A stretch of 18,660 bases of DNA, from the IMG/VR virus record IMGVR_UViG_2648501500_000009; one strand, given 5' to 3'. Numbering within the stretch: the stretch's first letter is position 1; every line of letters starts with the position of its first letter. A program made the position numbers and the translations under genes. Source of the stretch: a virus. Lineage: Duplodnaviria; Heunggongvirae; Uroviricota; Caudoviricetes. The notes under the pieces are model-generated. The model did not search any database. It had not been told where the DNA came from and saw only the letters and a list, made by a program, of their open reading frames with translations. This document shows, piece by piece, positions 1 through 17,784 of the stretch.

Positions 1-293
1 CCCCGGCAGACCAGCCACCAGGACAGTGCACTTTTTATCTGCAGCCGCCGGTCGGCCTCGCTCAGCCAGGGCAGACCACCGGGATGACTGTGGACCAGTG
101 CCACAATCTCCCCCTGCATCTCTGCCCGCAGCCAGTCTTCCGGTGCAATACGAAAATACGCCTCCGGCTCTGCAGAGATATTCACACAAGGGATATACCG
201 CTCCCCCTCCGGCGTTCTCACCACGAAGCCGCACGACTCCGCAGGCACACACCGCCGGGCATGCGCCAGAATCGCTGATTCAGTCTGTGTCAT
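1..293 (-). CDS. K: Tail assembly protein K (JAB/MPN + NlpC/P60 family), N-terminal ~97 codons only; C-terminus beyond window edge
   Basis: Minus-strand translation from ATG at 293 reads MTQTESAILAHARRCAPAESCGFVV...VALVHSHPGGLPWLSEADRRLQ, which I recognise as very close to lambda gpK and carries a JAMM-type H-x-H-x7-S-x2-D motif (HSHPGGLPWLSEAD). Not in the ORF track because it is truncated. Confidence 0.85.
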   Translation of the reverse strand, partial: MTQTESAILAHARRCVPAESCGFVVRTPEGERYIPCVNISAEPEAYFRIAPEDWLRAEMQGEIVALVHSHPGGLPWLSEADRRLQIKSALSWWLVCR

Positions 294-303
294 AAACCGG
301 GAT

Positions 304-1002
304 TTACTGCGAAAGTTTATTAATGGAAAGGAAACCGCCAAAATTAGCCACCATGCCGCGCATCTCACACCCGCGCATGCACTTGCTGCATCTGTCCTTA
401 CGGATATCGGTGGTGGGTTTATCGAACTCATCCGCCACAGCCCCGCCCGTGTAACCACACTCATCAGAGCGGTAGGTCCACATACAGGTGTTCGCCAGCA
501 TGATGCGACCGGGAAACAGCGCCCCGTCCGTCTCGGTCGGTGTGGCCAGCACAAACGAGGCCGTCATGGCCGTCAGCGATGACATCTGCTCCACCACCCA
601 CCGGTCAGTCAGCTCCTGCTCCGGGTCGGCCTCCGGATTGCCTGCCACAAAGTTCACCGCATCCAGAAAACGCGCATACACCCGGCGGCGGACCACCGTG
701 GCACCCACCAGGCTCTGCAAATCCTCCGCCATCCCGGTGACAAGACCGAACAGATTGGACACCGTCAGCGACGGGCGGGCACTGCTGCCCTTTCCGTTCA
801 TCTCAAAGCCACTGCCCTCAATCGGGTACGCCTGATATTGCCGCCCCTGCCAGGTCACCGGCTCCCTTTTTTCATTCAGCTCATTGCAGAAAAAATACCG
901 CTCACCGCCCTGCACCGTCAGGTCGATTTCCCAGAGCACCACCCGCGGTGACTGCTCTGACTTAACCGACTCGTTCAGGCTTTCTTCGTGAATATCCTGC
1001 AT
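304..1002 (-). CDS. L: Minor tail protein L (tail tip complex)
   Basis: 232 aa, same length as lambda gpL and alignable along its length from memory (MQDI...WEIDLT..GGERYFFCNE...GFLSINKLSQ); start overlaps M stop (TGATG). Confidence 0.9.
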   Translation of the reverse strand: MQDIHEESLNESVKSEQSPRVVLWEIDLTVQGGERYFFCNELNEKREPVTWQGRQYQAYPIEGSGFEMNGKGSSARPSLTVSNLFGLVTGMAEDLQSLVGATVVRRRVYARFLDAVNFVAGNPEADPEQELTDRWVVEQMSSLTAMTASFVLATPTETDGALFPGRIMLANTCMWTYRSDECGYTGGAVADEFDKPTTDIRKDRCSKCMRGCEMRGMVANFGGFLSINKLSQ

Positions 1003-1343
1003 CAGTTCACCACCTGCTCAATCGTACAGCTGAAATCACTGTACCGGGCATTATCCGTGACACTCCACTCACGGCACACAACCCTCACCGTCCGGTTATG
1101 TTTCGGCGGTCGCCACAAAAAGGCACGGTAACCACCATGCCACGATAAAAACTCTTCCAGCCAGCGCCGGGTTGACTCATCCGTCACCCGGAACACCGCC
1201 TGAAACGTCTTCAGTTGAGGATTCAGCCCTGTGGGGCGGCGCTGTTCATAACCGTCACCAAACCGCACCCTCACCACCGACGGCTTCTCACTCACCTGCA
1301 TCCCTTCACGCGGGACCAGATGCAGCGTTTTTATCTCAGCCAC
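1002..1343 (-). CDS. M: Minor tail protein M
   Basis: 113 aa, positioned between tape measure and L as in lambda; start overlaps the 3' end of H. Confidence 0.85.
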   Translation of the reverse strand: MAEIKTLHLVPREGMQVSEKPSVVRVRFGDGYEQRRPTGLNPQLKTFQAVFRVTDESTRRWLEEFLSWHGGYRAFLWRPPKHNRTVRVVCREWSVTDNARYSDFSCTIEQVVN

Positions 1344-4300
1344 TCAGCATTCCTCCGTCACGTCGCATGGACAGCATCACCGCCTGCACCCGCTGGTCAA
1401 TCAGCTGCACAAGACTGCCTGCCGCCTCCGGCCCTATCTGGCCATTAGTCCCGTCATTCTGAATGGCGATATGGTAGACCGGGGAATACACCAGACCCGC
1501 ACTGCCGTTCATACTACCCACCGCGCGCACACCCAGCGAGCCATCCGCCGCCCGCGTCAGAGGCATAATGGCTTCAGGTCCGGCCTCCCCCATCAGCCCG
1601 GCCCCTTTTGCAAAGGCAAAGTACGTGGGCGTATCCACAATACTGTTGCTGTACGCACTCAGGTTTGCCGAGGTATACACGCCGCCTTTTGCATTGGCCA
1701 CCGCTCCGCCCAGCCAGTCACCAATGCTGCCGAGAAATCCTCCCGCACCGGACATACCGTTTGCCGCCGTCTTAATTCCGTTGACAATCGCGGCATTCAT
1801 AAGAACTTTTGATATTTCCTGCAGCACTGATGAGGCCCAGCTGCGCCATTCCACTTTATTTCCGTTCAGCATCTCCGTGATGTTATTCACCATCCCTGAG
1901 ATACCCTCCGTCGCAAGCTGTGCTGCCTGTGAGGCGTAATCGGACGCATTATCCACCCAGTTACTGAATCCCTCCTGCAGCCCTTTCTGCCAGTCCGCAC
2001 GCTGCGCATCCGATTCGGCATAAAAGGCTTCCTGCTCTTTCAGACGTTCACTCAGATACTGTGCATTCTGCGCCAGAGCCTGTCTGTAAAAATCCTCACT
2101 GATATCCCCGGTCTGATACTGAGACTGAAGGTCCGCATCCTTCTGGCGGAAGCTGTCGCGGATCTGCTGCAACTCCCGCATGCGTTCTCTGGCTCGTTCC
2201 CCCTGCCCGTACCCCAGCAGTTCAGCATCATTCGACGCACGCGCAGCCGCATTCTCATTCTTCAGTGTCTCTTCCCGGGATCGCAACTGTTCCCGGATTT
2301 TTTGCTGGTCAATCAGGGCCGCATTACGCAGCAGCTCCTGCTTCTGCATCTCCGTCAGGGTTTTCAGTTCGCCCTGCGCAGTCTGGTATTTCAGCTTCGC
2401 CAGCTCTGTATTCTGCCCCACCAGTGCCAGTTGCTCTTTCTGCTGCTTCAGCAGCCGGGAAAAACTGTCTTCCGCTTTTTCCGTCTCTGATTTTCCACCC
2501 CGGGATTTGGGTTTATTCGCCTCGTTATTGCGCCAGGCTTCCAGGGCATTACTGATATAACGTTGTCTCGCCTCCTGATACGGATCACCCACAAAACCGA
2601 GGTCATCCGCCGCATACCCCAGCCGGACACGCTCTTTTTCTTCCCCTTTCAGTCTGGACAGGGCCAGCTCACGCTCTGTTTTTGTCAGGGCACTCTGCTG
2701 TTTATCATCCAGGGTGGCCTGTGGCAGCCGTAACGGCACATTCACCAGTCCCTGCCGCTGCTGAAGCAGTTCATTCCCCAGCCCCAGCAGACGGTTAAAT
2801 TCCGTATGCTGAACATTCATCTGCAGCAATGCCTGGTATGCTCTGTTCTGCTCTGCTGCCTCCTCGCGTATCCTCGCCACACGGTTGTATTCCAGTGACG
2901 CCAGAGCTTCCTGTACAGACTTCGCCTTTTCCTGCATCTGTGTCAGTCGTGACTGTTCAACCGCCAGTTTGCCAGTTGCCTCCGCAAGGCCGTGGGTTAT
3001 AATCTCCACACCTGAACCACCCTGTGGATTTTCCTGCAGCCAGCGCTGATAGTCAGCAATCTGTGTTTTCAGTCCCCGGACTTTACTTTCCTGCTCAGCA
3101 ATCAGACGATTCTGCTCTTCCAGTGCCTCGCGAGTTTTACCCTCATTATCAGCCAGTTCCGGAAGGGTCATTCCCGGTACCTTTGCCCGGATTTCATCAA
3201 TCGTCGATGCATACTGACGGGCGGACTCCCTGGCCTGTTCCTGATTCTGGTACACCGTGTACCAGGCACCGGCTCCCAGCATCAGTAAACCGGGTATCCC
3301 GCCGACAAGCGAAAGCAGGGATGCCGCGCCACTTTTCAGCATTCCCGTAACCGACGTGGCATTCTCCAGCGCCTTCCTCGAGGCCGCCACCGCCTGATTC
3401 GACTGTACCAGTGCGGCATTGGCCACAATCATGGCCCGGCGTTTTGCGACGGCATTCTGTGTGGCCAGCGCCTCCGCACTGCTATTTCTGGCCAGTGCAA
3501 GTTCAGCCTGTGCCAGTTGCCAGGCACGTTCTGCCGCCAGCGCGTCAGCTGCCGCCTTACGCTGCACCTGAACAGCCGCATCTGCCTGTGCGGCTGCAAG
3601 GGCAACCGTCCCGGACTTCGCCGCGATCAGCTCTGTGGTGGCCTTTCCCACGCCTGCGGCCATATTGCCAAAGTACCGGGCCACCCCGACGGCAACCAGC
3701 GCCCCCGCGGCTGTTGCCACATTATCAATATTACCGGCAACACCGTTCAGCACGCCGGAGAGCGTTTTCGTCGCTCCGCTGGCTTCATTCGCGCCACCCA
3801 CCCAGGCCATAAAGGCGTTTTCCACCTTTGTGATCCCGTCAGAGACCGTTTCCGGCATGGCGGCATATTCATCACGCAATACCCCCAGCTGGCTGATTAA
3901 CGCAGGAACGACTTTATCCGCCGTCAGTTTGCCGTCGTCCGCCATCGCCTTAAGGTCTTTACGGGCCACGCCCATACCCGCAGCCAGTGCACGTATGATC
4001 CGGTCTCCGCTTTCATTGACCGAATTAAATTCCTCACCCCGTAACACACCCTGTGCCAGCGCCTGGCTGAACTGGGTGATCACCGAGCCCGCCTCTGCCG
4101 TACTGGCACCGGATATTTTCAGCCCTGTCGAAATGGCCTCCGTCACCTTCAGTACATCACCGGCACTGTAACCATATTCACGCATTGAGGCAGCCGAACG
4201 GGCAAACAGGGCCGCATTATCCGAAAATGCCGTGCCTGTCCGCTGGCTGATATCCATCAGCACTTTCTGTGATGACGAAAATTCATCAGATGACTGCGAC

Positions 4301-7265: not shown

Positions 7266-7592
7266 TCATAACACCGTCGGACAACGCAAATCGTAAATCA
7301 GCACGGACACAGAAAACGGCAGTTCCCCCTGCACGAGGTCTTCCCGCTCAGCAAGATCCGGATTCCGGTACAGCATCCCGGTCAGTCGCATGGCAGCCCC
7401 CTTCATCCGGGTTAATGCCTCGCCCGGGATCAGCTCACCGTCCTCACGAATCACTTTATCCCGGCTGCCCTGAATGTAGGCCAGCAGCACGGCGGTAGCC
7501 TGACGAACCTTGTCCATCAGCATGTCATCATCCGCGTCATGGTCAACACGCAGATGTGCCTTGATCTCTTCCAGTGTCAGTAATGCCGTCAT
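7266..7592 (-). CDS. Head-tail connector protein (HK97 gp6-like)
   Basis: 108 aa; N-terminus MTALLTLEEIKAHLRVDHDADDDML resembles the gp6-like connector family signature (L-x-E-x-K-x-H-L-R-V-D); start overlaps the stop of the upstream gene (ATGA). Confidence 0.7.
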   Translation of the reverse strand: MTALLTLEEIKAHLRVDHDADDDMLMDKVRQATAVLLAYIQGSRDKVIREDGELIPGEALTRMKGAAMRLTGMLYRNPDLAEREDLVQGELPFSVSVLIYDLRCPTVL

Positions 7593-15475: not shown

Positions 15476-15808
15476 TCAGGGTGCAGAAGGACTAAAGATA
15501 AACGTTTTCTTCACGCCTTTACACGGCCTGTCCTTCTCAAATCGCCATTTTGCCATCGCCTTTACAACCTGCTCATCAAACAGATGGTGCGGCTCTGAAC
15601 GAATAAACTCAATTCGGGTGACAGTACCATCAGCACCAATATCAAACCTCACATCAACCCGTCCCTTTATATAATTTGCCGCTGCATAGGCCGGATATTG
15701 TGGTAATGCCTTAACCAACTGTCGGGGCATATCTGTTTTATGTTGCGTACAGCCCATAACCAGAGAAGACAACAAAATAATTAACGGAAGATTTCTTTTC
15801 ATTTTCAT
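15476..15808 (-). CDS. Lipoprotein with TonB C-terminal-domain-like fold (moron candidate)
   Basis: Signal peptide plus lipobox-like LVMGC; YPAYAAANYIKGRVDVRFDIGADGTVTRIEFIRSEP...AMAKWRF matches the TonB-C pattern (YP..A...G.V.V.F.I...G.V). ATG starts at MKMKRNL preferred over the upstream GTG of the ORF track. Own promoter-like elements upstream; flanked by non-coding DNA. Confidence 0.65.
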   Translation of the reverse strand: MKMKRNLPLIILLSSLVMGCTQHKTDMPRQLVKALPQYPAYAAANYIKGRVDVRFDIGADGTVTRIEFIRSEPHHLFDEQVVKAMAKWRFEKDRPCKGVKKTFIFSPSAP

Positions 15809-16140
15809 TCCCCGCACAGATAAAAATAAGTCTTATTCTAACAATGCCGCCCTGTCGGTCATCAATCCTCTGCTTAATGGCAACGACAATTATCCGACTT
15901 AAATCACAAATCAGACACATGACATAACAGGGCTTGCGAGGTAACACATCGTCCTGTTTCTTCCACCATCGCACCGGACTGGCGACTATGAGGGGACAAC
16001 GCCGCGCTCCGTTAACGCGGTAAACCCCGGTGTGTATCGTTTTTGATTATCCCCGCACACTCGCGCAGAGGAGTCTCCCTGTCGGGCTGCGGTCTCTGTT
16101 AATGAGGGAATACAGCGACGATACGGCGCATCAACAAAAC

Positions 16141-16608
16141 TTATTTCAGGCACTGAGTACGGATATATTCCTGCGCCCCTTCCAGCTGCTTCTGCATTGT
16201 CATCAACCGTTCTCTGAGGATGAAATAATCCCGTTCAGCGGTGTCTGCCAGTCGGGGGCCGGTTGCATTATCCACGCCGGAGGTGCCGGTGGCTTCACGC
16301 ACGGTACCGGAGCAGGTGGCGTTGATCCGCAGGCGCTTACGACCAGCGGCAACATCAGCACGCAGAGTTTCATTTTCAGCTCTCGCATCGGCTAATTCCC
16401 TCGAGTATTTTGCATCGAGCGCAGCAACATCGCGCTGGCGCACCTGCATATCAGTAATGGTTGCGTTCGCCAGCTTCAGTTCACTGGCTTTTTTATCGCG
16501 CTGCGCTTTGTAAGTGATGGCGTTATCGCGGTAATGATTCAGCCCCAGACTAAGCGCACCACAGGCCACCAGCAGAGCAATGATGACCACACACAGAACG
16601 CGGTTCAT
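16141..16608 (-). CDS. Rz: Rz i-spanin (155 aa from MNRVLCVV)
   Basis: Near-colinear with lambda Rz ([16 protein letters not shown]...[15 protein letters not shown]...[30 protein letters not shown]); the ORF-track N-terminal extension is rejected. Confidence 0.9.
16203..16388 (-). CDS. Rz1: Rz1 o-spanin lipoprotein, embedded in the +1 frame of Rz
   Basis: [22 protein letters not shown]...[27 protein letters not shown] closely matches lambda Rz1 (lipobox plus Pro-rich periplasmic segment); entirely inside Rz. Confidence 0.85.
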
Positions 16609-16707
16609 TTCACCACCAACGGATTGCCCAGACCAGAACAGCAATGGCCACAATACGAATGGCAAATGCCATTGCCCGAATAAGTTCAGCACTCATCTTT
16701 TTAAAGT

Positions 16708-16830
16708 TCACGATTTCAGCGCAATGACCAGTTTTGCCAGCCCATATAGCATCGGAGACACAGCAATACCAACAGCCACCCACTTAATAGCAAAAGCCAG
16801 CGCTCTGCTGATGTCATCAGTCACTGTCAC
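16708..16830 (-). CDS. Candidate small hydrophobic peptide ORF-c (40 aa, GTG start overlapping ORF-b stop as GTGA)
   Basis: VTVTDDISRALAFAIKWVAVGIAVSPMLYGLAKLVIALKS; frame open from further upstream (90-codon ORF in track); real start uncertain. Confidence 0.25.
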   Translation of the reverse strand: MTVTDDISRALAFAIKWVAVGIAVSPMLYGLAKLVIALKS

Positions 16831-16958
16831 CCCAGCAGCCCCGACGAAGACAACATCACCCAGGCGAGGGACAGAAAAAGAGCAACCAGCATTAGTGAAA
16901 ATGAAATACCGACAATCACACAGAGGACCTTTGCCGGCGTTATGAGTTTGTCTGACAT
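16827..16958 (-). CDS. Candidate small membrane peptide ORF-b (43 aa)
   Basis: MSDKLITPAKVLCVIVGISFSLMLVALFLSLAWVMLSSSGLLG; ATG 2 nt after the ORF-a stop (TAGctATG); one predicted TM helix; below the 60-aa cutoff of the ORF track. Confidence 0.35.
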   Translation of the reverse strand: MSDKLITPAKVLCVIVGISFSLMLVALFLSLAWVMLSSSGLLG

Positions 16959-16960
16959 AG

Positions 16961-17056
16961 CTACCCCTTAATTGCCACAATTAACTGGGATACTACCCAT
17001 AAAAAAGGGATGCTCCAGACCAGCAAAAATTTCCAGTTTGGTAATTGACTAATCAT
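16961..17056 (-). CDS. Candidate small membrane peptide ORF-a (31 aa)
   Basis: MISQLPNWKFLLVWSIPFLWVVSQLIVAIKG; ATG preceded by GGGAG 9 nt upstream; the longer GTG-initiated ORF in the track runs through the terminator hairpin and is rejected. Confidence 0.3.
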   Translation of the reverse strand: MISQLPNWKFLLVWSIPFLWVVSQLIVAIKG

Positions 17057-17121
17057 GAGTCGCAACTCCCTAATCAGTTTGCTAAAATCAATCAAGGCAG
17101 CCTCCCATAGCTTACTGCCAT

Positions 17122-17174
17122 AAAAACAAAACCCCGCTTGCTGCCAACAAACGGGGTTTTTACTTTTATTCACT
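17122..17174. terminator. Bidirectional intrinsic-terminator-like hairpin just downstream of the endolysin gene
   Basis: ACCCCGCTTG-ctgcca-CAAACGGGGT (9-bp stem, one mismatch) flanked by an A run on the left and TTTTTACTTTTATT on the right, so a U-tract follows the stem on either strand. Confidence 0.6.
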
Positions 17175-17250
17175 TACGTTTCGCCAGTTCGCAGGATTTC
17201 GTGTTATCCGCCCGCGTGGCCATGCCTTATTTTTCAGCAAAATATTCTGC

Positions 17251-17784
17251 TTATCTGTCGATACCCCAGCACGCCAGCGCGCTCTCCTGGTCACGACGGG
17301 ATACCTGACCGTAGCAGTTGTTTGAACGAATACGGCAGTCTCTGCCACCGTCCTTAATCCACCAGCGAATCGCCTCACACGCTCCCCTGCGATCACCTGC
17401 ATTAATTCGTCTGTAAAACGTCGACGGGAAACACTTACCGGGACCAATGTTGTACGGACAGAATGACGCGATCCCCGCTTTCTGGGGTTCGGTCAGTGGC
17501 ACTTTGATGTTTTTCTCCACCCATGCCAGCGCCTTATCACGTTCAATGGCGTTAACCTGGTCGCATTTTTCCTTCGACAACTTCATGCCCGGGAGGACAG
17601 GCTTACCATCCACCCGGGTGGCACCGCGACAGATGGTCCAGATACCCGCGCCATCACGGTATGCCGTGGTGTGGTTACCTTCCTTTTCATCCAGAAACTG
17701 GTCGAGGATTTCAGGCGCAGGCGCACCTGCGGCAATCAGCGCCAGAACGGCAGCCGACAGGCCGTATTTGATTTTTGCGTTCAT
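17251..17784 (-). CDS. R: SAR endolysin, phage-21 R-type lysozyme (GH24 / T4-lysozyme fold), 177 aa
   Basis: N-terminal Gly/Ala-rich weakly hydrophobic segment (YGLSAAVLALIAAGAPAPEIL) typical of signal-anchor-release domains; catalytic E-x8-D-x5-T triad (EGNHTTAYRDGAGIWT); C-terminal region similar to R21 as recalled. Confidence 0.85.
   Translation of the reverse strand: MNAKIKYGLSAAVLALIAAGAPAPEILDQFLDEKEGNHTTAYRDGAGIWTICRGATRVDGKPVLPGMKLSKEKCDQVNAIERDKALAWVEKNIKVPLTEPQKAGIASFCPYNIGPGKCFPSTFYRRINAGDRRGACEAIRWWIKDGGRDCRIRSNNCYGQVSRRDQESALACWGIDR

What the first reader, a model, noticed from the sequence alone, without database searches (positions are those of the whole stretch)
15476..15808. 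Prophage moron encoding a TonB C-terminal-domain-like lipoprotein
Between the lysis and packaging modules, flanked by non-coding DNA on both sides (about 320 bp upstream, about 130 bp downstream), is a secreted lipoprotein whose mature part looks like the C-terminal domain of TonB. TonB-C binds the TonB box of outer-membrane receptors (FhuA, BtuB, etc.). A periplasmic lipoprotein mimic could block TonB-dependent phages or colicins, functionally like the known FhuA-inactivating lipoproteins Llp (T5) and Cor (phi80/N15), or alter iron uptake. I could not match it to the known lysis-region morons Bor or Lom.
Basis: inference. Interest (0 to 1): 0.6.

Follow-up and report, generated by a model that had tools for sequence, protein, structure and literature searches.

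The report
Prophage lipoprotein copy of TonB's tip
A 604-bp add-on gene in an E. coli lambdoid prophage encodes a small outer-membrane lipoprotein that is a copy of the receptor-docking end of TonB; about 30% of complete E. coli genomes carry it, it probably jams TonB-dependent import, and nobody seems to have tested it.

Summary
Its mature part is a complete TonB C-terminal domain: Pfam TonB_C E=9e-15, and an AlphaFold model that superposes on TonB from the BtuB complex at 1.1 A. Related prophages with an empty site show it sits in a 604-bp, AT-rich moron (15352-15955). The gene is in 1616 of 5426 complete E. coli genomes as two alleles, is under purifying selection (dN/dS 0.12), and keeps all seven functionally important TonB residues. 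RefSeq and the phage 21 record already annotate it ("TonB family protein"), but I found no functional study.

The decoy idea is plausible but untested. Two results complicate it. The carrier phages have lambda-type J tail tips, so this is not Cor/Llp-style self-exclusion. Non-phage homologues in Klebsiella, Raoultella, Serratia, Pantoea and Erwinia carry strong Fur boxes, which places the family in the iron-starvation regulon.

In passing: a conserved, covarying RNA-like element lies downstream of Rz in many lambdoid phages, lambda included, and the moron is inserted into it.

The parts
15476..15802 (-). CDS of the TonB-C lipoprotein. It is 108 aa from the ATG at 15802; an in-frame ATG at 15808 would give 110 aa. 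The stop codon is 15476-15478.
   Evidence: ORF list. Matches RefSeq WP_000828072.1 'TonB family protein' at 100% identity. The first ATG is ATA in phage 21. Shine-Dalgarno spacing read.
15749..15802 (-). Lipoprotein signal peptide MKRNLPLIILLSSLVMG plus the lipid-modified Cys (codon 15749-15751). The +2 residue is Thr, so Lol sorting to the outer membrane is predicted.
   Evidence: PS51257-like pattern match and +2 residues across the family. The lipobox is conserved in alignments A1, A2 and A3.
15491..15727 (-). TonB C-terminal domain (residues 28-106 in 110-aa numbering, equivalent to E. coli TonB 153-231). It includes the PQYP motif and the beta3 strand.
   Evidence: Pfam and NCBIfam. PDB sequence alignment. 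AlphaFold2 model. Foldseek against PDB.
15352..15955 (-). The moron cassette (604 bp, 42.9% G+C against 55.7% for the window). It comprises a 153-bp 5' region, the gene, and a 124-bp 3' region.
   Evidence: Filled versus empty site comparison with L039, L053, L056, L096 and L147. Junctions read ...GGTGGAAGAAAC|cassette|CGAACGTTCATTT.... Composition.
15835..15862 (-). Promoter-like site ATGACC-16-TAGAAT with an extended -10 (TGTTAGAAT, 15835-15843).
   Evidence: Consensus scan, not above chance on its own. However, the block ATTGTyAGAATAAGAC is conserved between the two diverged alleles.
15819..15837 (-). Weak Fur-box-like sequence AATAAGACTTATTTTTATC (13 of 19), at the place where homologues in other genera have strong Fur boxes.
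   Evidence: The shuffle p is about 0.03 to 0.06, so this is borderline. It is absent in phage 21.
15956..16131 (-). Conserved non-coding element directly downstream of Rz (context, not part of the moron). The moron is inserted in the 3' arm of its last hairpin.
16141..16692 (-). Rz (i-spanin), with Rz1 (o-spanin, 16203-16388) embedded in it. This is the end of the lysis cassette, on the same strand as the moron.
   Evidence: Pfam Phage_lysis E=4e-50. ORF list. Annotation.
15144..15344 (+). YlcI/YnfO (DUF3950) gene, convergent with the moron. It is the downstream border of the insertion site.

Best explanation
The gene encodes a decoy TonB tip.

Proposed mechanism:
- A tether of about 8 residues holds a complete TonB C-terminal domain just beneath the TonB-dependent transporters.
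- There it can pair its beta3 strand with the TonB boxes of transporters. It may also capture TonB boxes of incoming group B colicins.
- It has no link to ExbB/ExbD, so it cannot deliver force. Occupied transporters would therefore be uncoupled.
- The expected phenotype is reduced sensitivity to TonB-dependent phages, colicins and microcins, at some cost in siderophore and B12 uptake.

Expression:
- The gene is transcribed at least as part of the Q-antiterminated late operon, because it lies on the same strand between Rz and terS.
- It is probably also transcribed from its own extended -10 promoter in the lysogen.

Shown here: the ORF, lipobox, fold, retained functional residues, moron structure, prevalence and purifying selection. 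Inferred: outer-membrane location, TonB-box binding, inhibition, and timing of expression.
For: - The TonB_C domain is complete, spanning the equivalent of TonB 153-231.
- The model superposes best on TonB taken from the BtuB complex, TM 0.93, rmsd 1.1 A.
- All seven TonB C-terminal residues found to be functionally important (Y163, F180, G186, F202, W213, Y215, F230; PMC3005593) are kept as Y38, F55, G61, F77, W88, F90 and F105. They are invariant or conservatively replaced across the lipoprotein family. That paper reports W213, Y215 and F230 as only 22-26% conserved among TonBs in general.
- The lipobox is conserved and no member has Asp at +2.
- dN/dS is 0.12 between two alleles whose synonymous sites are near saturation.
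- The gene is in 1616 of 5426 complete E. coli genomes.
- A homologue sits at the same place, after the lysis genes and before HNH/terS, in a Klebsiella phage at only 41% identity.
[quoted passage not shown] Over-expression of the periplasmic TonB domain inhibits transporter-mediated iron import (PMC9841981 citing Howard et al. 2001).
- The phage 21-type prophage also carries sitABCD, annotated as an iron/manganese ABC transporter. From my own knowledge it is TonB-independent, so it could offset a cost in iron uptake. This is a correlation only.
Against: - There is no experiment, and I found no paper on this protein.
- Side chains that make specific contacts in TonB complexes are not conserved: R158, Q160, Q162 and R166 correspond to K33, L35, Q37 and Y41, and vary in the family.
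- The carrier phages have lambda-J-like tail tips, so the protein does not exclude its own phage type.
- Ten of 14 homologues outside E. coli have strong Fur boxes at the promoter. They would be induced exactly when TonB-dependent uptake is most needed, which fits an inhibitor poorly unless it acts as a guard.
- The gene is common in EHEC and ST131, which rely on TonB.
- PADLOC has no match.
- No intrinsic terminator was found, and the promoter-like site is not above chance on its own.
Confidence: 0.4

Rival explanations
1. It is an accessory component of iron-starvation physiology, not an inhibitor. A Fur-regulated outer-membrane lipoprotein would use a TonB-like domain to bind transporters or incoming substrates. 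It might hold or organise ligand-loaded transporters, hand off cargo as the TonB homologue FusB binds ferredoxin, or tune signalling. The phage copy would be a fitness moron that helps the lysogen acquire iron.
For: - Fur-box matches of 14 to 17 out of 19 lie 9-45 nt upstream of the start codon in 10 of 14 homologues from Raoultella, Klebsiella, Serratia, Pantoea and Erwinia. The shuffle p is at most 0.009 for each.
- These homologues are single genes in ordinary chromosomal contexts.
- TonB-like C-terminal domains can bind cargo directly: FusB-ferredoxin structures are among the fold hits.
- The gene is co-carried with sitABCD and iss in the phage 21-type ExPEC prophage.
Against: - A domain anchored in the outer membrane cannot transmit force, so a positive role needs a mechanism with no precedent.
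- The E. coli phage alleles have a weak Fur box (13 of 19, window type) or none (10 of 19, phage 21), as shown.
- The only experimental precedent for a free TonB C-terminal domain is inhibitory.
Confidence: 0.2
2. It is a late lytic-cycle function. The protein would be made from the late transcript together with the lysis proteins. It would act at the outer membrane during or after lysis, for example by protecting progeny from adsorbing to debris (as proposed for T5 Llp) or by assisting envelope disruption.
For: - The gene is on the same strand as, and directly downstream of, Rz/Rz1 and upstream of terS. No terminator lies between them.
- The same position is occupied in phage 21 and in a Klebsiella phage.
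- PHROG 1267, which the protein matches over its full length (E=1e-42), is filed under 'lysis'.
Against: - A complete Rz/Rz1 spanin pair is already present.
- Closely related phages lack the cassette entirely, so it is not needed for lysis.
- The 'Rz-like spanin' label has no support in the sequence, which is a globular TonB_C domain.
- The carrier phages have lambda-type J, so protecting progeny from a TonB-dependent receptor has no obvious use.
- Chromosomal, non-phage homologues exist.
Confidence: 0.1
3. It is an envelope-stabilising or surface-conversion lipoprotein that uses the TonB/TolA-like fold to bind something other than TonB boxes. Candidates are peptidoglycan or another periplasmic beta-strand ligand. 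Its role would resemble that of the neighbouring Bor/Iss moron in serum or stress resistance.
For: - In phage 21 and ST131 prophages it sits next to bor/iss at the same moron site.
- TolA domain III structures are weaker fold hits.
- TonB-specific contact side chains are not conserved.
Against: - The seven functionally important TonB residues are retained.
- The best structural matches by far are TonB domains, E=4e-8, against TolA at E of about 0.03 or worse.
- There is no evidence here for peptidoglycan binding.
Confidence: 0.1
4. It is a non-functional remnant of tonB. The old EDL933 annotation, quoted in a phage record, called it a 'partial tonB-like membrane protein'. On this view it hitch-hikes in prophages.
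For: The old annotation wording, as carried over in the ev017 record. No phenotype is known.
Against: - dN/dS is 0.12.
- A lipoprotein signal peptide has been acquired and is conserved.
- The domain boundaries are complete.
- The ORF is full length in 1611 of 1616 genomes that carry it.
- Homologues occur in five other genera.
Confidence: 0.03

Closest known systems
E. coli TonB C-terminal domain (PDB 1U07, 1XX3, 2GSK with BtuB, 2GRX with FhuA)
   Same: Same fold and same domain boundaries, with 36-38% identity over about 80 residues. The YP motif and the seven functionally important residues are retained.
   Different: It has no N-terminal membrane anchor, no proline-rich rod and no possible link to ExbB/ExbD. 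Instead it has a lipoprotein signal peptide and a tether of about 8 residues. It ends four residues before the end of TonB. It scores far below the NCBIfam TonB equivalog cut-offs (73.6 bits against 315).
Engineered periplasmic TonB fragments (Howard, Herrmann, Stratilo and Braun 2001, J Bacteriol 183:5885)
   Same: Both are a TonB C-terminal domain placed in the periplasm without its energy-coupling N-terminus. The engineered fragments are reported to inhibit TonB-dependent iron import (cited in PMC9841981).
   Different: The fragments were soluble, over-expressed laboratory constructs. This is a natural gene, lipid-anchored, diverged to about 38% identity, and spread by phages. I could not read the original paper.
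Llp (T5) and Cor (phi80, N15, HK022, mEp167) superinfection-exclusion lipoproteins
   Same: All are small phage-encoded outer-membrane lipoproteins that act, or are proposed to act, on the periplasmic face of a TonB-dependent transporter.
   Different: Llp and Cor form one structural family unrelated to TonB. Llp binds inside the FhuA barrel, and TonB binding competes with it. They are specific for FhuA and are carried by phages that use FhuA. The carriers here have lambda-type J, and a TonB box binder would be generic for all such transporters.
Bor / Iss moron of lambda and phage 21
   Same: Both are small lipoprotein morons at the same genomic site between Rz and the packaging genes. Bor/Iss is adjacent to this gene in phage 21 and ST131 prophages.
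   Different: There is no sequence relation (no Bor hit). The orientation is opposite: bor is antisense to the late operon, whereas this gene is sense.
Phage 21 gp73 'TonB C-terminal domain protein' (UMO75484.1) and RefSeq 'TonB family protein' WP_000828072.1 / WP_000830178.1
   Same: These are the same gene family. The window protein is identical to WP_000828072.1 and 71% identical to phage 21 gp73.
   Different: None in kind. These are annotation labels only, and the phage 21 genome paper does not mention the protein.

Membership tests
TonB_C domain (Pfam PF03544 / TIGR01352) | Profile score above the curated cut-off | tested here: met
   PF03544 scores 55.3 bits against 24.6. TIGR01352 scores 55.1 against 27.1.
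TonB_C domain (Pfam PF03544 / TIGR01352) | [quoted passage not shown] | tested here: met
   The model has pLDDT >93 over residues 30-105. Foldseek gives 2gsk_B at TM 0.93 and rmsd 1.1 A, and the top 11 hits are all TonB or FusB C-terminal domains.
TonB_C domain (Pfam PF03544 / TIGR01352) | Conserved YP motif and the functionally important aromatic and Gly residues | tested here: met
   Y38-P39, F55, G61, F77, W88, F90 and F105 correspond to Y163-P164, F180, G186, F202, W213, Y215 and F230.
TonB energy transducer (bona fide TonB) | N-terminal uncleaved membrane anchor that couples to ExbB/ExbD | tested here: not met
   The N-terminus is a cleavable lipoprotein signal peptide. All NCBIfam TonB equivalog scores fall below their cut-offs, for example 73.6 against 315.
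TonB energy transducer (bona fide TonB) | Proline-rich periplasm-spanning spacer | tested here: not met
   The mature protein is 91 residues. Only about 8 residues separate the Cys from the start of the domain.
Bacterial outer-membrane lipoprotein | Lipobox with Cys after a hydrophobic signal peptide, and no Asp at +2 | tested here: met
   LVMG|C-T matches a PS51257-like pattern. The +2 residue is S, T or A in all family members. Lipidation and localisation themselves were not testable.
Phage moron | Present or absent as a discrete insertion between genes that are adjacent in related phages | tested here: met
   The 604-bp cassette is absent from L039, L053, L056, L096 and L147, which otherwise share Rz-element/YlcI/HNH/terS. 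The junctions were mapped to the base.
Phage moron | Base composition unlike its surroundings | tested here: met
   42.9% G+C against 55.7% for the window. GC3 is 0.40 against 0.58 for Rz.
Phage moron | Own promoter and terminator | tested here: inconclusive
   An extended -10 (TGTTAGAAT) is conserved between alleles, but the scan is not above chance. No intrinsic terminator was found. No transcript data are available.
Llp / Cor superinfection-exclusion lipoproteins | Sequence or fold relation to Llp/Cor | tested here: not met
   Only TonB_C families match. Llp and Cor share a different fold.
Llp / Cor superinfection-exclusion lipoproteins | Carried by phages that use the receptor being blocked (FhuA) | tested here: not met
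   The C-terminal 258 aa of phage 21 J are 57.5% identical to lambda J. The J protein of Lys8385Vzw, which carries the window-type allele, is 78% identical to that of phage 21. The mEp213, mEp234 and mEp235 J proteins match only the first ~57 residues; I recall mEp phages as FhuA-dependent, and no tool result here shows it. The receptor itself was not determined.
Llp / Cor superinfection-exclusion lipoproteins | Blocks infection by phages that use a TonB-dependent transporter | not testable with these tools
   This needs plating assays.
Bor / Iss (Lambda_Bor) | Profile match to the Bor family | tested here: not met
   No hit at E<=1. Genuine bor/iss is a separate neighbouring gene in phage 21 and ST131 prophages.
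Rz1-type o-spanin (the PHROG 1267 label 'Rz-like spanin') | Short proline-rich lipoprotein embedded in or next to its i-spanin partner and needed for lysis | tested here: not met
   A genuine Rz/Rz1 pair lies upstream. This protein is a globular TonB_C domain. Related phages lack it. The label looks like an annotation error.
Known anti-phage defence systems (PADLOC) | Match to a catalogued defence protein | tested here: not met
   No credible hit; the best is E=0.04 to an unrelated cyclase.
Fur regulon | Fur box at the promoter | tested here: inconclusive
   It is strong in 10 of 14 non-E. coli homologues (14-17 of 19 matches, p<=0.009). The window allele has 13 of 19 at the homologous place (p about 0.03). 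Phage 21 has none. Fur binding was not tested.

The most novel reading that the evidence does not exclude
A family of outer-membrane-tethered TonB decoys exists in Enterobacterales. In chromosomal copies it is switched on by iron starvation through Fur, which is when TonB-dependent transporters are most abundant. It intercepts TonB boxes at the periplasmic mouth of those transporters, possibly preferring the TonB boxes of invading colicins and phage proteins. This would give broad protection against TonB-dependent killers. In E. coli, lambdoid phages have captured it as a moron and spread it to about 30% of strains, including EHEC and ST131.
Probability: 0.3. Interest if true: 0.75.

Novelty: new variant of a known kind. 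Interest (0 to 1): 0.55.

Why it matters
If the decoy model holds, this would be a generic, host-derived way for prophages to shut a whole class of entry routes, not just one receptor as Llp and Cor do. Those routes are all the TonB-dependent transporters.

It would then bear on three practical matters:
- the host range of therapeutic phages that need TonB;
- the efficacy of colicins and microcins;
- the efficacy of siderophore-conjugated antibiotics in the roughly 30% of E. coli that carry the gene, among them O157, O26, O111 and ST131.

The Fur boxes on the chromosomal homologues make the family a candidate uncharacterised member of the iron-starvation regulon. The experiments needed are simple: one small gene and standard plating and uptake assays.

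Tried and rejected
- **Bor/Lom identity.** No profile match.
- **Known defence system.** PADLOC gave nothing.
- **Spanin, as PHROG 1267 is labelled.** Rejected because a real Rz/Rz1 pair is present, the protein is a globular TonB_C domain, and related phages lack it.
- **Functional Fur box in the window allele.** Only 13 of 19 matches, p about 0.03-0.06, and none in phage 21. I left this as borderline.
- **AgvB/AsxR-type prophage sRNAs as the identity of the element downstream of Rz.** Those lie at the pR' moron site, not here, and Rfam finds nothing.
- **The conserved upstream element as a small protein.** Rejected because of stops, frameshifts and mostly non-synonymous changes.
- **Single-sequence RNA stability of that element.** Unremarkable, z = -0.76.
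- **Viral structure library BFVD.** No significant match to the fold.
- **The search for related loci with the broad alignment A2.** Failed for lack of a conserved stretch; the narrower A3 worked.
- **Literature.** Nine searches found no functional study. Howard et al. 2001 is not held. EHEC proteome and RpoS papers do not mention the gene.
Full report
**What is there**

The window is a lambdoid E. coli prophage. It matches many E. coli chromosomes at 96-99.8% identity over its whole length.

On the - strand the order is holin, YdfR, lysozyme (17251-17784), Rz (16141-16692) with Rz1 embedded (16203-16388). Then come the gene in question, a convergent YlcI/YnfO (DUF3950) gene on the + strand (15144-15344), HNH endonuclease (14737-15102), terS (13882-14445), terL, and the head and tail genes.

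The ORF at 15476-15817 has two in-frame ATGs, at 15808 and 15802. The second is the likely start for three reasons:
- The first is ATA in the phage 21 allele.
- The GGGG run at 15813-15810 is correctly spaced only for 15802.
- RefSeq and the phage 21 annotators both aa.

The stated non-coding flanks are also correct: 338 bp upstream and 131 bp downstream.

**What the protein is**

Residues 1-19 (110-aa numbering) form a basic n-region, a hydrophobic core and the lipobox LVMG|C. This matches a PS51257-style pattern, and Thr follows the Cys.

The remaining 91 residues are a complete TonB C-terminal domain:
- Pfam TonB_C, E=9e-15.
- TIGR01352, E=7e-15.
- phmmer E about 1e-15 to the solved E. coli and Salmonella TonB domains. 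Residues 28-106 align without gaps to TonB 153-231, including PQYP.

An AlphaFold2 model built on 15 relatives has pLDDT above 93 from residue 30 to 105. Its best match in the PDB is TonB from the BtuB complex: 2gsk_B, TM 0.93, rmsd 1.1 A over 81 residues. Other TonB and FusB domains follow, and TolA domains are far weaker.

It is not a TonB. It lacks the membrane anchor and the proline-rich spacer, and it falls far below every NCBIfam TonB equivalog cut-off. It has no Bor, Lom, Llp/Cor or PADLOC match. PHROG 1267 matches it over its full length and is labelled 'Rz-like spanin'. That label is not credible, because a real Rz/Rz1 pair lies upstream and this is a globular domain.

**It is a moron, and the borders can be mapped**

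A conserved 176-nt element directly follows Rz (window 16131-15956). I used a pattern from that element to fetch 120 phage contigs holding 121 copies.
- 22 copies are followed by this gene.
- Five loci (L039, L053, L056, L096, L147) go straight from the element to YlcI, HNH and terS.

Aligning filled and empty sites gives the junctions ...GGTGGAAGAAAC | cassette | CGAACGTTCATTT.... The cassette is therefore window 15955-15352, 604 bp. It has 42.9% G+C against 55.7% for the window. GC3 is 0.40 against 0.58 for Rz.

Inside the cassette:
- A promoter-like site with an extended -10 (TGTTAGAAT, 15843-15835) lies 33 nt upstream of the start. The scan is not above chance. However, the block ATTGTyAGAATAAGAC is conserved between alleles whose coding sequences are only 72% identical.
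- A second motif, AAGTCrGATAATnG, lies about 85 nt upstream in all four E. coli alleles.
- No intrinsic terminator was found.

The gene is on the same strand as the late operon. By standard lambda biology it should therefore be read through from pR' during lytic growth. Expression in the lysogen is inferred, not shown.

**Distribution and selection**

blastn finds the gene in 1616 of 5426 complete E. coli genomes, nearly always at full length. About 414 genomes carry the window-type allele (>=95% identity), including EDL933 and many non-O157 STEC. About 1201 carry a 73%-identical allele.

That second allele is the one in phage 21 (gp73, annotated 'TonB C-terminal domain protein') and in the icd-integrated prophage of ST131. 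There it sits beside bor/iss, and the same prophage carries sitABCD.

Between the two alleles pS is 0.66 and pN is 0.17, giving dN/dS of 0.12. The protein is clearly under selection.

A Klebsiella phage has a 41%-identical homologue in the same position, after the lysis genes and before HNH/terS.

An exhaustive HMMER search and a genome scan found short lipoprotein homologues at 33-51% identity in Raoultella, Klebsiella, Serratia, Pantoea and Erwinia. These are single genes in ordinary chromosomal settings: lacZ-lacI and DUF1440, dsbB-nhaB, araA, and panE. One sits next to a pore-forming colicin gene and an integrase fragment.

**Residues that matter**

Cysteine scanning of TonB 150-239 found only seven functionally important residues: Y163, F180, G186, F202, W213, Y215 and F230. 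The same study reports W213, Y215 and F230 as only 22-26% conserved among TonBs in general (PMC3005593).

All seven are kept here as Y38, F55, G61, F77, W88, F90 and F105. Across the lipoprotein family they are invariant or conservatively replaced.

Positions that make specific side-chain contacts in the complexes are not conserved (R158, Q160, Q162 and R166, from my own knowledge of 2GSK and 2GRX). The TonB box pairs with beta3 as a beta strand (PMC11658791), and in my understanding that pairing is mainly through the backbone. The beta3 strand is present in the model at residues 96-105.

The protein ends four residues before TonB does, with a Pro-rich tail.

**How it most likely works**

The anatomy fits an outer-membrane-tethered TonB tip that can dock on TonB boxes but cannot pull. 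In the complexes the N-terminal part of the domain (the Q160 region) lies next to the TonB box at the periplasmic rim of the barrel. A lipid anchor 15 residues upstream is therefore geometrically reasonable. This step is inference.

Over-expressed periplasmic TonB domain is reported to inhibit transporter-mediated iron import (Howard et al. 2001, as cited in PMC9841981). I could not read the original.

I therefore rank the decoy model first, at about 0.4.

**What complicates it**

1. The C-terminal 258 residues of phage 21 J are 57.5% identical to lambda J. The J protein of a phage with the window-type allele is 78% identical to phage 21's. The J proteins of mEp213, mEp234 and mEp235, which I recall as FhuA-dependent phages, match only the first ~57 residues. 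Unlike Cor and Llp, this protein would therefore not exclude its carrier's own kind.

2. Llp and Cor are a separate structural family. Llp binds inside the FhuA barrel and TonB binding competes with it. The resemblance is in concept, not in ancestry.

3. Ten of 14 homologues outside E. coli have a 14-17 of 19 match to the Fur box GATAATGATAATCATTATC, 9-45 nt upstream of the start codon. Each has a shuffle p of at most 0.009. Across about 1300 background windows in the same loci, only 12 reach 14 of 19.
   - The window allele has 13 of 19 at the homologous place (15837-15819, p about 0.03).
   - Phage 21 has none.
   - The family therefore looks iron-regulated. This suits either a guard that scales with transporter abundance or a positive role in iron acquisition.

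4. The gene is common in pathogens that depend on TonB.

These points support the rival explanations listed, chiefly an iron-starvation accessory role (0.2).

**Comparison with what is known, and novelty**

The gene is already annotated in RefSeq, UniProt and the phage 21 record. Its existence and domain content are therefore not new. Nine literature searches found no functional work and no use of terms such as TonB decoy or TonB-like lipoprotein. The phage 21 genome paper does not mention it.

As far as I can tell, the following are new here:
- the base-level moron borders;
- the prevalence figure and the two-allele structure;
- the selection estimate;
- retention of the seven functional residues;
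- the chromosomal homologues and their Fur boxes;
- the lambda-type J of the carrier phages.

I class the finding as a new variant of a known kind. It is a phage outer-membrane lipoprotein aimed at TonB-dependent transporters, but built from a host TonB domain and potentially generic for all such transporters.

**Seen in passing**

The element between Rz and the moron is not coding. It has stops and frameshifts in phage 21 and Salmonella phage S107, and most changes are non-synonymous.

On 42 distinct copies RNAalifold gives nested helices of 43 pairs. Pair counts on that structure:

| Measure | Observed | Controls |
|---|---|---|
| Cells that pair | 98.2% | 33-58% when partners are slid |
| Pairs with compensatory changes | 10 | 1-7 when slid |
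| Shuffles reaching the observed values | 0 of 500 | n/a |

Most variation is U-G, U-A or C-G on the late-transcript strand, which points to RNA rather than DNA.

blastn found the element in 398 phage records. It is in lambda itself at 46868-46981, between bor and lambdap78. No Rfam family matches.

Caveats: the copies were fetched with a pattern inside the element, the structure was derived from the same alignment, and the single-sequence folding energy is ordinary.

The moron is inserted in the 3' arm of the element's last hairpin.

Separately, the portal gene of this prophage is split into two reading frames near 8650, whereas a close relative has one ORF.

Noticed in passing
window 15956-16131 (- strand); also phage lambda 46868-46981 (L152:1469-1582): A conserved non-coding element of about 180 nt lies directly downstream of Rz (after bor in lambda and phage 21). 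blastn finds it in 398 phage records. It has nested helices with wobble-compatible and compensatory changes on the late-transcript strand: 98.2% of cells pair against 33-58% for slid controls, and 10 pairs covary. No Rfam family matches. It may be an undescribed structured RNA of the lambdoid late transcript. The TonB-C moron is inserted in its last hairpin.
   Followed up: partly
L012, L013, L016, L008, L003-L007, L009 (upstream of the homologous genes); window 15819-15837: Homologues of the lipoprotein in Serratia, Pantoea, Erwinia, Klebsiella and Raoultella have strong Fur-box matches (14-17 of 19) 9-45 nt upstream of the start codon. The window allele keeps only 13 of 19 at the same place, and phage 21 has none.
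   Followed up: yes
L150:8968-11001 (phage 21) and L151:19707-23156 (ST131 prophage at icd): The phage 21-type prophage that carries the second allele of this gene also carries bor/iss next to it and the sitABCD iron/manganese ABC transporter after the tail-fibre genes. As far as I know that route does not depend on TonB, so it could offset a cost of a TonB decoy.
   Followed up: partly
window 7589-10011 (- strand): The portal (portal-protease) gene is split into two ORFs in different frames (8647-10011 and 7589-8650). Strain 97-3250 has a single 860-aa ORF. The C-terminal part is only 75% identical and the region contains an internal repeat (8043-8272). This could be a frameshift, in which case the prophage would be defective.
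   Followed up: partly
window 15880-15890 region; L001, L153, L154 upstream regions: A second conserved motif, AAGTCrGATAATnG, lies about 85 nt upstream of the start codon in all four E. coli alleles of the gene. It could be an alternative -10 element or half a Fur box.
   Followed up: no
L024:1277-1903 (Klebsiella phage ST13-OXA48phi12.4) and L003:6744-7307, L004:6749-7312, L006:6733-7296: A DUF1440 (YagU-like) membrane protein gene lies next to the chromosomal homologue in Raoultella and Klebsiella. One is also present, upstream of the lysis genes, in the Klebsiella phage that carries a homologue. This may be coincidence.
   Followed up: no
L013:3196-5733 (Pantoea MAG): One chromosomal homologue sits beside a pore-forming colicin gene, whose product starts with a glycine-rich stretch containing GDGTGWSSE, and an integrase fragment. 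From memory that stretch resembles the TolB box of E-type colicins; no tool result here tests it. This is a single case of linkage to a bacteriocin island.
   Followed up: partly
window 16693-17250: Between the lysozyme and Rz genes there is about 560 bp holding only small ORFs. EDL933 and VT2-Sakai have an antirepressor (ant) gene at this place, so this is another variable insertion site within the lysis cassette.
   Followed up: no
PHROG 1267; VT2-Sakai orf48 (L027:1488-1748): The label 'Rz-like spanin' is attached both to the PHROG that holds this TonB-C lipoprotein and to a VT2-Sakai ORF that overlaps the non-coding element downstream of Rz. Both look like annotation errors spread by position next to Rz.
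   Followed up: partly
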